Source: Chrysomallon squamiferum
Taxonomy: Eukaryota > Animalia > Mollusca
Reading direction: 5' to 3'
Length of the DNA: 64,000 nucleotides
Assembly: GCA_012295275.1 (NCBI GenBank)
Contig: CM022665.1
Location: 38,688,001 to 38,752,000 of the forward strand
The notes under the pieces are model-generated. The model made no database searches and was not told where the DNA came from. It was given only the letters and a program-made list of their open reading frames with translations. This document shows positions 49,383 through 56,790 of the stretch, piece after piece; the stretch's first letter is position 1; each line of letters opens with the position of its first letter. Position numbers and translations under genes: made by a program.

Positions 49383-50927
49383 ATGGAAAGTGAACTACTG
49401 AAAGGTTGTGACTTCAACACAGTGTTTGACCCATTGGTGTACATTTTGACTTCATTACTAACATTGTAGGATACCTGGATAAGGGCCAGTGCATGAAGTT
49501 TGTTATTGACACACTTCATAATCTGTTCTCAAAAGATACATGTCATGAAGCATTATCCATCAGTAGCAGCAGCAGCAGCAAATAGGAGCAACAGTAATAG
49601 TAGTAGTAGTAGTAGTAAAAAAAGCAGGAAAAGTGGCAGTAGTAGTAGTAATTGTAGTGACTGTAGTAGTTGGGTTTCAACATGTGTACCAAACAGTAAA
49701 TGCTCAACACAGATAAAGAAATACACATCAGTTTTTTTCAACATAATAAAATTTTACCTTCAGATTTAATCTGTAACAGATTTCAGACAATAATTTTAAC
49801 CATCATATTTTCTACTGAACAGGTGAAATCAAAGGAAAATGACTGCTGGACATAGGGACTGGACCAACCATTCATTCAGTGATCAGTGCTAGCAAACACT
49901 TTGATGAAATCTATCTGTGATTTTTCTAAACATAACTTGGAAGCTTTGGCACAATGGAAGAACAATTCCTTGCCACACAGCTTTCAAGAATTTTTTCAGT
50001 GTGTAGTAACAAAGGAAGAAAAAGGGTATGTTGTGCAGAAAGGCTTGAAATAAACTTAATTTACATTTAAGTTTCTAGCAATGTATGGTGCATTAGAGAT
50101 GTGAGTTCATATAATTGTTTGCTTACAGATGTGCTGTTGAATTATTACTGCATGGCTTCTATTGGTCTTAGAGAAACTGATAATTTGGAGTGATTTTGGA
50201 ACCAGGAATTCATGAAAACCTGTTGTGTACCTGTACTAAACCTTAGTCTGTAATCTCATTTGGTAAATATTCCTTCAAAGTCATTACTTACATGAAATGT
50301 AAAGGGGGAGGTAAAGTTAAATATATTTTTAAACTAACATAAGAAATGCTTTCAAAAACAACTAAATTATATATCTTGTTTAAACAAGTTTATGCAAAGA
50401 TGTATGCATGGATATTCTTTGCATTAAATGGTAAATAAGTACGTATAACTATTACAGCTGTCTTTATAAAACCTATATCATTTCAGGGAAGATGCCAAAA
50501 CAAGAGAAGAAGAACTGAGAAACAAAGTTAAAGAAATATTTTCACTTGATCTTCTTTCAGATACCTGGCCTGCATTAATATCCAAACAACCTTATGATGC
50601 AATAGTGACATCTCTATGCATAGAAGCAGCTGCCCCCAGCAAAGATGCATACAAGAACATAGCTGAGAAAATTGTTTTTTGCTGAAATCAGGTGGTACAC
50701 TTACTCTCATTGGTATTCTTCGACAAACATTCTACAAAGTCGGAGAACATAATTATTATTGTCTTTGCATTTCTGAGCAAGAAATAAAGGACATTTGGCA
50801 GAGCTGTGGTTTGGATATAGTGATGTGGAAACTTAATCCAAATAATGACAAAGTTGCTGGGGCCATATCCGATAGTCAAGGAATATTTCTGATGATGGGA
50901 AAAGAAAATGAGAATGAAAGACTGTAA
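49383..50927 (+). pseudogene. Unprocessed NNMT/INMT/PNMT-family SAM methyltransferase pseudogene (exon remnants 49375-49535, 49823-50025, 50487-50927; probable 5' UTR exon ending 48919)
   Basis: Motifs FDPLVY, LLDIGTGPTIHSVISA, YDAIVTSLCIEAA, LLKSGG, FYKVG. Lesions: frameshift near 49446 giving TAG 49467-49469; donor reads AT rather than GT at 49536; in-frame TGA 49840-49842; frameshift near 49918; frameshift near 50677. Confidence 0.85.
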
Positions 50928-52648: not shown

Positions 52649-53829
52649 TCAGTTTGCAGAAATTTTACCACCAGTCTTATCATGGACAGAATAGTCCCCT
52701 CTCTGACCACCGGTTTTTAGAACAAGTTTCACATCACTTATCACCATGTCCCGTGTCACAGCTTTACACATGTCATAAATTGTCAGTGCAGCCAAAGACA
52801 CAGCAGTCAGAGCTTCCATTTCCACCCCTGTTTTACCATACATCTTCACTCTAGACTTTATAAGGATGCTGTAACTGTCTTCCAGTAGTGAGAATGACAC
52901 ATCAATTTTGGACAAATTGATATTGTGACAAAGTGGAATCAGTTCTGCTGTTTTCTTGGCTGCCATTATGCCAGCTACTTGTGACACAGAAAACACATCT
53001 CCCTTCTTCATCTTGTTTTCCTTGACTAACATGTAAGCCTGTTCCCCAAGGAAAATAATTCCCTGTGCTTCAGCTGTACGCTGTGTGTCTGGTTTGAGTC
53101 CTACATCAACCATGTTTGCTTTGCCTTGGTCATCAGTGTGAGTCAGACAGGATTCTACGCTGTCTCCATGGTTATTTATATATTTTGCAGAAGAATCAGA
53201 TTTCAGCTCGGCATAATAATTCTTTGATCCCCCCGTCCCAAGAGATTCCCAAATCTGATCCACAGGAAATTTCTGATCAGGAAAATTCTCTTCTACAATC
53301 AAGTCTTGCATGATTCTTTCTCTTCTGTCCAACTCCCAGTAATTCATGCCACAGTTACAGAAGATGTTATCATTTAAATTGCTGCCAGCTATCTTATGCA
53401 GCTGAAATATTTCTTCTGATCCACATCTTTGTCTTCTGTCCATTTCCCAGTATTTAGTGGTCTCATCTATGTTAACATTGTGGTTTCTTGCAAACTTCTC
53501 AGATTTGTCTCTTTCATTTTTAATTGTTGTATTTTCAACACCTTTCATATTATCAGAATCTGACAACTTGGAAGTAGTTGAAAATGTTCTGATGATTCCA
53601 GTGTTTCTGTGGTTACTTCCTTGGATACATGTGAAAATTCTTCCACCGATTAAACCAGCATCACCTTTCATTACAACAGTTTTCAGTTTATTGCTCTGTA
53701 TTAGATAATGACATGAATATAAAAAGTTAGGTAAAAAAGAAAATAAACCTGATTGTTCTATAGAGTTGTGCGCTATCACATTCTGGGATAAATCAAATAA
53801 AATCTTGTTTGTTGAAGGATAAGAAGAAT
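52649..53829 (-). CDS. MOCS1: MOCS1 exon 10: linker plus MOCS1B/MoaC domain (cPMP synthase; domain about 52649-53146)
   Basis: LTHTDDQGKANMVDVG...KKGDV...AGIMAAKKTAELIPLCH...TGVEMEALTAVS.AALTIYDMCKA...KTGG; acceptor tttcag at 53830-53831, in frame with phase-1 donors. Confidence 0.96.
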
Positions 53830-54330
53830 CTGAAATGAACAAACAAATAACATTAGAAACAGAAAATTTTTTTATTTAAAACACTATTCTTTGAAAAAAA
53901 ACATACAATGAAGTGATTTAAAAGTGCTTACTTACAATACTAATAGAAGAAAAAGTGAAAAAGAAAAACAACATGAGAAAACTCAACAAATATTACACAC
54001 CAAATATTAGTGAAATCAACAAAAAGTGTATTTCAATATATGTATAAATTACTGCCATGTAAAAACCTGTTCAGCAGTAAGCTGTATCTTTATTAGTAAA
54101 CACATGGAAATATTTGATTTTTAATTAAGTATTATGCTCATATCCATGGTTCATATAAAATTAATGTGTGAAAAATGATGCAGGGTTTTCTTACCACATG
54201 AAAAGGATGATAAATTTCAAACTGAAGATTAAGTAAGTGAATTTATAAAGAAATTCCCATCACTCCTAATCATAACTGAGTATATTTCACCCACTAATAT
54301 AAATACATACTTGGGTGAGTATAAAGAGCT

Positions 54331-54386
54331 TCACCCACCAATGAGTATCATGGGTCTGTTCTTCATCTTCGATAAATTTAGCATAC
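54331..54386 (-). CDS. MOCS1: MOCS1 exon 9, coding part: MOCS1A C-terminus with GG-stop
   Basis: GMLNLSKMKNRPMILIGG*; internal donor G|GTGGGT after 54339 and distal donor CAA|GTATGT after 54311. Confidence 0.95.
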
Positions 54387-54633
54387 CTGAAAAAAAAAAA
54401 ACATTCATAAACTTCCAAGTCCAACAAAAAAGTTCATAAAAATCAATTTCAGATAATTTATTATTATTTAAATATCAAGAAAAACTATCAGCATTCTCAC
54501 ATCCTCAAAAGCATGTTACTTTATTGTTAGAAAAGGTTGATGTTAAGAGTTTACGCAACAATAAAGCAAAGTTTATGAACTGTATTTATACTCTATGTGT
54601 TTATGACCAGGTGTTAATATTAACACTTCAAAC

Positions 54634-54754
54634 CTGCATGTTGTTTCTTCTTCCTTTTAACAGCTGCTCCAATAATATTCATCATTTCTTCCTCATCCAT
54701 GCCATTTCTCAAAGCATCTCTCAGTGAAATTTCAGCATTGCCATGGAGACAAAC
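54634..54754 (-). CDS. MOCS1: MOCS1 exon 8
   Basis: [16 protein letters not shown]...[10 protein letters not shown]; AG/GT boundaries, phase 0-1. Confidence 0.95.
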
Positions 54755-55360
54755 CTGGAAGAAATAATGGAATAAGTTTTCTGATAAAATAATTATAATG
54801 CATCAGAAGTTGTGTTTTCTTGTGATCACAATGTCTGCCTCTGCAGAATTAATGATGAATGTAACTAATATACAAACCAGATGAAGAAGGATAATAACAG
54901 TTATAATATTTCTTAAACCTGAGTGATGCAGCATTTAAGCATTTTGCTAATATCTGAGATATTATGACACAACGAAACTTGATACCCAAATATGTGTTAG
55001 TTAAAATGGAGAAAAAACACCAGCTTGTCATCATATGTTTTTTTACTAACATATGAGATAAAAAAACATTTATAATGCACCTTCCATTAAACAAAAAGTT
55101 TTTATCTGTGATTATGTTATGGAGATATTTTGTGAAAACTTTCAAATCTTGATGTTATTGTATTATAGCAGTTGTGAAACAGAAACAACCTTTTTAATCT
55201 GTGATCTGTAAACCCCGTATCTAAATTTATGAGAACAGGATTTATTTTATAATATCCACTACAAATTTGAAACACACCAGCTAAAACCATTAAATCAAAC
55301 ACCTCAGTATTTGTACCAAAATTTCTCCATTTTATAATGTTTTATTTTGAAAGATTTTAC

Positions 55361-55530: not shown

Positions 55531-56790
55531 GATTAATATTGAAATATATTAAAAGGTTATGAAGTAATAACAGATACGTGAGGTACTCTGGCAAAAGGAG
55601 CACAGATACATTTCTAAAAATTCAAACTTTATGCAAACTGGATAAAAACTGACAAAGATATTGCACTTTTAGTATTCACTACTGCAAAGAAATGAGAAAA
55701 AGGCCATTGAAATTAGTCAACTTGAAGGCAATCCACTCAACAATGCATTTTCAGGCACCTTAAACCATAAATCTCTGAGAAAACAAAATCCTCTGTAACA
55801 GACCAAGTTGTCTAATCATTACAGAAAACTCCAGAAAGGTGTTGCAGGTACTAATTAGGGGCAAGCAGCTGTTGTTAACTGTGAGACAAAAGGCAATTAA
55901 AGCTGCAGGTGTAATAAGCTGGATCTTTGATGTAGAAACAGAAAACAGTTTTCTTAGCTGTATACTTGATGTGATTTGACTGAAAATAAAAGTTACCTAT
56001 CTGAGTTTTGTTGATAGTTTTTCTGACAGAGCTGTTCAACAGCAATAATAAATGAAGTTTTAATACATAAATGATAGTTCAAAAAATCAGAATGATCATA
56101 GCATTTATTTACATGCAGACCATTGTAGGATGCTACTATTAACTGACCAAAACTGCTACATAGTTCATTTTAATATGAGATAACATATCAGATAAGGAAA
56201 GCTGTCATTACAACCGTTCTTGTGGTATATGGCATGTAATGTCTATTCATGCTTGTTTTAGGCAATTCTGCAATTATTTTATCTTAATTAGGCAAGTTTT
56301 ATGAAGGAACGCTTCCAAAAATTTTGAAAAATCTGTTTTCCACTATGGTTTATTAATGCTTACTTCTTTGGGTGAAAGATGAATACTTATTTGATGGTTT
56401 TACACACAAATTCCCAAAACAGTAAAAACTGACCTAATATATTGTAAGACAATTATATCATCATTAACCCATGTAACAAGTGTCTCCTTCTACCAGAGTG
56501 CCTAACATATAAGATTTTAGTTTATAATAATTTGGTGTACAAGAAGTTAGACAAAAATATATCCAAAGTCACATGAAGTACTTGGAAGGGAGATAACCAC
56601 AAAATATTTTATATTACTGATAACCCTGCATTATTTCAAAATGGAAAAAATAAAATAAAGTAGAAAATACACCTTTACATTTGCCATAATCTCAAAACAA
56701 AATAAAATAAAAATTAATAATAACTGACAATTCCAGACAGAAACGATATCATTTATTTTGTCTTAGACTGTTACAGATTAATATAATTAC

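What the first reader, a model, noticed from the sequence alone, without database searches (positions are those of the whole stretch)
54277..54348. Mutually exclusive hairpins over the two MOCS1 exon 9 donors: candidate RNA splice switch
Seen (pre-mRNA sense): AUACUCAUUG|GUGGGUGA AGCUCUUUAUAC UCACCCA A|GUAUGUAUUUAUAUUAG UGGGUGA AAUAUACUCAG. One UCACCCA (54312-54318) is complementary to two UGGGUGA copies. The first overlaps the internal donor and the MOCS1A stop (54331-54337); the second is in the intron (54287-54293), part of a duplicated ATTRGTGGGTGAA..TATACTCA block. Hairpin 1 (7 bp, 12-nt loop) masks the fusion-producing donor. Hairpin 2 (7 bp, plus AGUAUG:UAUAUU inside and UAUA:UAUA outside) buries the distal GUAUGU donor and frees the internal one. 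Inference: competing folds could set the MOCS1A:MOCS1AB ratio and so balance the two enzymes of Moco step 1. I know of no description of such a switch. Caveats: hairpin 1 can also extend via AUACU:AGUAU onto the distal donor, the intronic copy offers a third GUGGGU donor or decoy, and no folding energies were computed.
Basis: partly seen in the sequence, partly recalled or inferred. Interest (0 to 1): 0.75.

Follow-up and report, generated by a model that had tools for sequence, protein, structure and literature searches.

The report
Local repeat at MOCS1 splice donors
This is an invertebrate copy of the well-known two-in-one MOCS1 gene for molybdenum-cofactor synthesis; three short complementary repeats sit over its alternative splice sites, but they are missing from the distant animal genes compared and are likely a local duplication that at most nudges splicing, not a regulated RNA switch.

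Summary
The triad is the only one in 64 kb; shuffles give 0.1. The gene is a standard animal MOCS1, probably from a mollusc. RNA contigs from 4 of 4 runs (one study) use the distal donor; fusion forms are in frame but were not seen. The switch as proposed fails in folding models. When hairpin 2 forms, the internal donor is not freed: it pairs with the upstream Pro-Met codons and stays paired in 90 of 90 context and temperature runs. Hairpin 2 dominates at 37 C, yet the donor it buries is the one seen used. None of 105 other MOCS1A ends, 29 of them animal-type, has the triad, but none is a close relative. The scan noted MOCS1 splice genes on other DNA, not this triad.

The parts
54634..54754 (-). 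MOCS1 exon 8; its donor is phase 1, so skipping exon 9 would fuse in frame to MOCS1B (type III)
   Evidence: RNA joints in 4 of 4 runs (read with the cut +2); GT-AG register; frame
54311..54386 (-). MOCS1 exon 9 as spliced in the type I (bicistronic) transcript, 76 nt
   Evidence: Joints 54384/54632 (cut +2) and 53829/54311 in X1-X4; register
54350..54355 (-). ACCCAT (end of the Arg codon, Pro codon, start of Met codon): 5' arm of helix H0, predicted to pair with the internal donor
   Evidence: Folds; largely imposed by the peptide, no covariation signal
54333..54338 (-). Internal donor GTGGGT inside the Gly-Gly codons; use would give the in-frame MOCS1AB fusion (type II)
   Evidence: Sequence; open frame to the MOCS1B end; not seen in RNA contigs
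54331..54337 (-). First TGGGTGA, holding the MOCS1A stop TGA (54331-54333); 5' arm of hairpin 1
54312..54318 (-). TCACCCA, exonic; shared arm of hairpins 1 and 2
54305..54310 (-). Distal donor GTATGT, 28 nt after the internal donor; the donor used in all RNA contigs laid
   Evidence: 4 of 4 runs, one study
54277..54298 (-). Intronic degenerate direct copy of the exon end, with the second TGGGTGA (54287-54293) and a weak donor-like GTGGGT (54289-54294); 3' arm of hairpin 2
   Evidence: unchanged in run X5
53830..54310 (-). Intron 9, 481 nt, GT-AG
   Evidence: skips 481, ends CT..AC on the + strand
52649..53829 (-). Exon 10 coding part: linker and MOCS1B (MoaC domain)
   Evidence: ORF; PF01967 E 2.6e-55; covered by RNA contigs

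Best explanation
The site is the standard two-donor exon 9 of an animal MOCS1 gene, its distal donor is the one seen in RNA contigs, and the three repeats are likely the remains of a lineage-restricted short duplication plus a short inverted copy that would change donor choice little. Shown: the gene structure, use of the distal donor (MOCS1A with its Gly-Gly end), open frames for both fusion routes, and absence of the triad in distant orthologues. Predicted by folding: the internal donor is paired in every state (with the upstream Pro-Met codons, or in hairpin 1), and the distal donor is cheaper to open in every context tested, most of all in nascent RNA before the intronic copy is made. Inferred: MOCS1B comes from minor use of the internal donor and/or exon 9 skipping, as in other animals; the intronic block arose by replication slippage and TCACCCA by a template-switch-type event; both are tolerated because the copy is a poor donor and its use would still give MOCS1A.
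For: Distal donor in 4 of 4 RNA runs. Internal donor unpaired at most 0.22 in 90 of 90 runs. Opening cost favours the distal donor in 6 of 6 full contexts (by 0.5-5.2 kcal/mol) and by 6.6-8.6 kcal/mol in 6 of 6 nascent fragments. Among 105 unique MOCS1A ends, 0 have a direct copy of the donor of 6 nt or more within 60 nt and 1 (L050) has a 7-bp Watson-Crick partner. A distal donor 15-47 nt downstream is common without any triad (12 of 22 animal-type representatives; 7 of the 12 are GTAYGT with a non-G before it, like the window), and its predicted pairing there is 0.34-0.90 against 0.80 here. The intron block aligns better as a direct copy (score 25) than as an inverted one (14); 4 of 901 adjacent 44-mer pairs elsewhere in the window reach that score. 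No Rfam match to E 1. Template switching can make such hairpins without selection (PMC5453318, PMC8794818, abstracts).
Against: The triad is unique in 64 kb and sits exactly on the two donors. At 10 C hairpin 1 passes 0.2 in 15 of 30 contexts. By duplex energy with the U1 5' end the internal donor (-9.2) looks stronger than the distal one (-4.0), although consensus counts say the reverse (4 of 7 against 5 of 7); so structure may be needed to explain distal use. No close relative was available, and contigs drop rare forms, so isoform ratios are unmeasured.
Confidence: 0.6

Rival explanations
1. Static or kinetic tuning. The repeats arose by accident but now set the isoform ratio. As the RNA is made, hairpin 1 would first mask the internal donor while the distal donor is open; about 25 nt later the intronic copy would capture TCACCCA, bury the distal donor and leave the internal donor held only by H0. 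Early U1 binding gives MOCS1A, late binding gives more fusion. No signal is needed.
For: Prefix folding: hairpin 1 at 0.62-0.78 for RNA ending at 54310-54295, hairpin 2 at 0.91-0.99 from 54285 on (37 C). The opening gap falls from 6.6-6.7 kcal/mol (nascent) to 0.5-2.1 (full) at 37 C. Hairpin 2 stretch z -2.70.
Against: The internal donor never becomes the more open site. No such arrangement in 105 other loci, which keep a donor pair or tandem donors without it. The time window is about 25 nt of transcription, likely around a second (rate recalled, not from a call). No fusion junction seen.
Confidence: 0.25
2. Regulated RNA switch: temperature or an RNA-binding protein shifts the hairpin 1/hairpin 2 balance and so the MOCS1A:MOCS1AB ratio.
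For: Hairpin 1 median probability rises from 0.02 at 37 C to 0.07 at 20 C and 0.20 at 10 C over 30 contexts. Regulated splicing of the orthologous step exists in Neurospora nit-7 (PMC7232280, passages).
Against: The low-temperature balance swings from 0 to 0.99 with the chosen ends, so it is not a robust prediction. Neither state frees the internal donor. No conservation at distance, no Rfam match, no ligand-binding-sized fold, no condition-dependent RNA data.
Confidence: 0.07
3. The intronic copy acts through sequence, not structure: a weak third donor or U1 decoy 44 nt after the internal donor. Its use would give a MOCS1A-only transcript, so it would be nearly silent.
For: It keeps GTGGGTGA intact; splicing there leaves MOCS1A unchanged; U1 duplex -5.7.
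Against: Only 3 of 7 consensus positions, and the -1 G of the original is an A. No contig uses it. It is paired in hairpin 2 in most folds.
Confidence: 0.08

Closest known systems
Human/animal bicistronic MOCS1, exon 9 splice types I-III (Mayr et al., bioRxiv 10.1101/429183, passages read; PMC9607355, passages read; Gray and Nicholls 2000 not held, seen only as cited)
   Same: MoaA part ending Gly-Gly-stop in a short exon 9, internal donor in the Gly-Gly codons, distal donor, MoaC in exon 10, both fusion routes in frame.
   Different: The donors are 28 nt apart (human type II lacks 15 nt). There is an exonic complement and an intronic copy of the donor, not found in 105 other loci. Human proportions are quoted as 41% type I, 55% type III, rest type II; here only type I was seen, in shallow contigs.
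Neurospora crassa nit-7 (PMC7232280, passages read)
   Same: One locus gives the A protein or the AB fusion by splicing around the Gly-Gly-stop; the ratio can be regulated.
   Different: nit-7 works by intron retention and responds to nitrogen status; here donor choice, with no evidence of regulation and no intron 9 cover in RNA contigs.
Donor-sequestering hairpins and competing RNA pairings: tau exon 10 (PMC6720520), SMN2 exon 7 (PMC1802598), MALT1 (PMC9348792), Dscam1 (PMC12962786), all seen as search listing with abstract start only; LMNA competing donors (bioRxiv 10.1101/376343, abstract)
   Same: A short stem predicted to cover a 5' splice site, with two donors competing.
   Different: By their abstracts these rest on mutations, probing or conservation. 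Here there is prediction only, no conservation at distance, and the alternative fold does not expose the other donor.
Short template-switch and slippage products (PMC5453318, PMC8794818; abstracts)
   Same: Local inverted and direct repeats that form hairpins and are absent from distant relatives.
   Different: No ancestral or sister sequence was available, so the mutation event itself was not reconstructed.

Membership tests
Animal bicistronic MOCS1 | Radical SAM (MoaA) coding exons ending in Gly-Gly-stop | tested here: met
   PF04055 on one upstream exon, E 1e-10; type I frame ends in Gly-Gly
Animal bicistronic MOCS1 | MoaC domain in the last exon of the same transcript | tested here: met
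   PF01967 E 2.6e-55; single contigs join exons 7-8-9-10 in 4 of 4 runs
Animal bicistronic MOCS1 | Type I transcript (stop kept, distal donor) | tested here: met
   Joint 53829/54311 in X1-X4
Animal bicistronic MOCS1 | Fusion transcript by internal donor or exon 9 skipping | tested here: inconclusive
   Both are in frame to the MOCS1B end; neither junction is in the contigs, which drop rare forms. Annotated fusions in other molluscs have the internal-donor form (P0003, P0006, P0007, P0011, P0059) or lack the exon 9 peptide (P0015, P0018)
RNA-structure splice switch | A stable helix over a donor | tested here: met
   Hairpin 2 median probability 0.97 at 37 C, z -2.70; prediction only
RNA-structure splice switch | Two exclusive folds of similar energy | tested here: inconclusive
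   Hairpin 1 above 0.2 in 1 of 30 contexts at 37 C, 5 of 30 at 20 C, 15 of 30 at 10 C
RNA-structure splice switch | The alternative fold exposes the other splice site | tested here: not met
   Internal donor unpaired at most 0.22 in 90 runs; never cheaper to open than the distal one
RNA-structure splice switch | Conservation or covariation of the arms | tested here: not met
   0 of 105 distant loci carry the triad. Close relatives were not available; run X5 is identical but too close to inform
RNA-structure splice switch | A trigger, and rescue by compensatory mutation | not testable with these tools
   Needs minigenes, probing and condition series
Known structured RNA family (riboswitch or other) | Match to an Rfam covariance model | tested here: not met
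   0 matches to E 1 in 53700-54900

The most novel reading that the evidence does not exclude
A lineage-specific, co-transcriptional RNA timer on MOCS1: hairpin 1 shields the fusion donor while the distal donor emerges, then the intronic copy flips the fold and narrows the gap, so that elongation speed or water temperature sets how much of each Moco step-1 enzyme is made.
Probability: 0.08. Interest if true: 0.65.

Novelty: new member of a known kind. Interest (0 to 1): 0.22.

Why it matters
How animals balance MOCS1A against MOCS1AB is not explained in the papers read here, and I found no paper on a hairpin at MOCS1 exon 9 (the key 2000 paper and most subscription journals are not held). A proven structural control would give a first cis-acting mechanism and an example of a switch born from one small duplication. 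On present evidence the site is an ordinary MOCS1 exon 9 with a local repeat. The more useful by-products are the survey of donor layouts, with a 4-nt tandem-donor layout in some animal-type loci, and a cheap minigene test.

Tried and rejected
No genome is held for this window, so no genome-wide donor model or paralogue check. Gray and Nicholls 2000 (PMC1369970) is not held. Pattern scans of genome contigs and viral contigs gave 0 loci. Tandem Repeats Finder found nothing at score 30. Rfam gave nothing. H0 as a conserved, selected mask: pairing in 29 animal-type loci beat uniform synonymous recoding (0.67 against 0.52, 24 of 29 higher), but against codons resampled per column it did not (0.69 against 0.64, 14 of 22, p 0.18), and Pro/Ile third positions showed no covariation; rejected as unproven and largely peptide-imposed. 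Stop-codon readthrough to MOCS1B: rejected, the type I junction is out of frame and stops after 18 residues. The overlapping +4 GT: out of frame with MOCS1B here. Polymorphism test: X5 has no difference over 54247-54418, but its contig over 54105-55400 has 16 listed substitutions and 3 gaps in about 1060 intron letters, so an unchanged 34-nt intron stretch is expected about half the time; uninformative. Absence of fusion junctions and of intron 9 cover in contigs is not evidence of absence. In one search the background scan included the locus itself and the exon 7 donor was out of register; both were redone. No look-alike earlier finding by place.

Full report
Observation. The minus strand holds TGGGTGA at 54331-54337 and 54287-54293 and TCACCCA at 54312-54318. 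The repeat finder gives both inverted pairs (12 and 18 nt between arms), a 13-nt direct repeat 44 nt apart and three ATACTCA copies. Single 7-mer inverted pairs are at chance level in this window (26 against 23.3), but the triad is the only one in 64 kb (0.1 expected, maximum 1 in 40 resamples). It needs only two events: one inverted 7-mer and one duplication of the exon end.

The gene. Upstream exons encode a radical SAM protein and the last exon a MoaC domain. The best named relatives of the last exon are molluscan MOCS1 proteins, so the organism is probably a mollusc (inference). Four RNA runs from one study, kept as contigs at depth 9-25, each hold a contig joining exons 7, 8, 9 and 10. 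Exon 9 is 54311-54386 and ends at the distal GTATGT donor: the type I transcript, with the stop 20 nt before the last junction. The internal donor and exon 9 skipping both give open frames to the end of MOCS1B; readthrough and the overlapping +4 GT do not; the intronic copy would give MOCS1A again. No contig shows a fusion junction, but contigs drop rare forms. Of 120 fetched proteins, 34 include the end of exon 8; 16 continue through the exon 9 peptide into a non-Gly residue (the internal-donor form), 13 lack that peptide motif, 5 continue with Gly. These are gene models, not checked here. In humans the three types are known, quoted as 41% type I and 55% type III (bioRxiv 10.1101/429183, passages).

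Folding. Hairpin 2 is the minimum-energy fold of the 101-nt region with probability 0.96-0.99 in five contexts of 101 nt or more; only the bare 72-nt finding gives hairpin 1 a share of 0.32. The two states are therefore hairpin 1 (internal masked, distal half open) and H0 plus hairpin 2 (both masked). Over 30 contexts at each of 10, 20 and 37 C the internal donor is unpaired with median 0.01-0.02 and maximum 0.22. The step 'hairpin 2 frees the internal donor' is not supported. Against my reading: hairpin 1 exceeds 0.2 in 15 of 30 contexts at 10 C; scrambling the intronic copy widens the distal donor's opening advantage by 2.9-5.6 kcal/mol in 6 of 6 settings; and nascent RNA ending at 54310-54295 favours hairpin 1 (0.62-0.78 at 37 C) before hairpin 2 takes over. 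The distal donor stays cheaper to open in all 12 native settings. Donor strength is ambiguous: consensus matches are 5 of 7 distal, 4 of 7 internal, 3 of 7 copy, whereas U1 duplex energies rank the internal donor first (recalled motifs, G-U pairs inflate the value, modified bases not modelled). In the spliced type I mRNA hairpin 1 is predicted at 0.98 and covers the stop codon; I see no consequence, since the downstream frame does not reach MOCS1B.

Conservation. The pattern fixes GGTGGRTRA, so loci with other codons are missed. By my rule 33 have an intron at the animal position, 79 are continuous (mostly fungal-looking, some cDNA-like) and 6 other. After removing 13 duplicates, 105 remain (29, 71, 5). 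None has a direct copy of the donor of 6 nt or more within 60 nt; one, L050, has a 7-bp Watson-Crick partner, predicted paired at 0.01. These are distant genes (MOCS1B identity 43-56% in the 10 animal-type loci that reach it), so this rules out deep conservation only. Among 22 animal-type representatives, 12 have a candidate distal donor 15-47 nt after the internal one (picked by my pattern, not RNA-confirmed), 8 have a strong GTRAGT overlapping the stop, 2 have neither; predicted pairing of the distal donor ranges 0.34-0.90, so 0.80 here is not unusual. H0-like pairing is common (mean 0.68) but is explained by the peptide and column codon use. A DNA-like run from another study is identical across the triad but differs at under 2% of intron sites, too few to inform.

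Origin. The intronic block aligns to the exon end as a direct copy with 20 of 22 letters matching and one 5-nt gap (score 25; inverted alignment 14). Two of 5792 other 44-mers reach that score, and 4 of 901 adjacent 44-mer pairs elsewhere in the window do: real, and not rare as a class. Template switching is a published neutral source of short hairpins (PMC5453318; PMC8794818; abstracts only). The event was not reconstructed.

Mechanism and rivals. Most likely (0.6) the repeats are passengers on a conventional two-donor exon: the internal donor is weak or masked by codon-imposed pairing, the distal donor is taken most often, and MOCS1B comes from minor internal-donor use or skipping (inferred). 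Next (0.25) is unregulated tuning by the fold sequence hairpin 1, then H0 plus hairpin 2. A regulated switch (0.07) and a decoy donor (0.08) remain open.

Literature. Regulated splicing of this step is known in Neurospora nit-7, by intron retention (PMC7232280, passages); Drosophila also makes short and long forms (PMC5817353, passages). PMC4528330 held only the citation. PMC9607355 (passages) restates the human forms. No paper held all of MOCS1, hairpin, exon 9 and splice; none of the 15 listed of 488 papers mentions MOCS1; two searches listed none on RNA structure at this exon by title or abstract start. Gray and Nicholls 2000 could not be read and may discuss donor layouts, including the tandem one noted in passing. 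No supplements were read. Rfam has no match.

Verdict. Observation confirmed; interpretation partly supported; new member of a known kind; interest 0.22; novel case 0.08.

Noticed in passing
L012 (match 225-254 +) and L034 (match 1501-1530 -); same donor layout in L031, L038, L039, L048, L059, L077, L083, L088, L092, L107, L116: A different MOCS1 splice layout: a strong GTRAGT donor overlaps the stop, 4 nt after the internal donor, with no distal donor. In L012 and L034 a candidate exon 10 acceptor begins with GTGA, so the +4 donor would rebuild Gly-Gly-stop and the internal donor would enter the MOCS1B frame (316 and 265 open codons). Found in 2 of 13 such loci; L039 and L038 did not fit clearly and 7 or more have short flanks. 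No RNA check; I could not check whether it is already described.
   Followed up: partly
window 54350-54355 with 54333-54338, and 29 animal-type loci: The conserved Pro-Met...Ile-Gly-Gly codons are self-complementary, so the internal donor is predicted paired upstream in most animal-type MOCS1 genes (mean 0.68). No selection signal beyond codon use, but it may be a built-in brake on the fusion donor.
   Followed up: partly
12 animal-type loci (for example L029, L033, L040, L053, L080, L101): Candidate distal donors are often GTAYGT with a non-G before them (7 of 12), as in the window, and all lie within 47 nt of the internal donor. This looks like a conserved suboptimal donor kept close to the stop.
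   Followed up: partly
window 53649-53651 region (first in-frame ATG of exon 10, 178 nt after the MOCS1A stop in the type I mRNA): Two short out-of-frame ATG frames precede an in-frame ATG that opens 340 codons of MOCS1B; re-initiation from the type I mRNA is possible in principle.
   Followed up: no
window 50470-50927 (+): NNMT/PNMT/TEMT-family methyltransferase gene downstream of MOCS1, tail to tail; the domain continues across two adjacent reading frames at about 50667-50685, so a frameshift, assembly error or tiny intron is possible.
   Followed up: no
window 55827-55864, in an upstream MOCS1 intron: A short stretch matched by many unrelated RNA contigs with loose ends in all four runs: likely a fragment of a dispersed repeat.
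   Followed up: no
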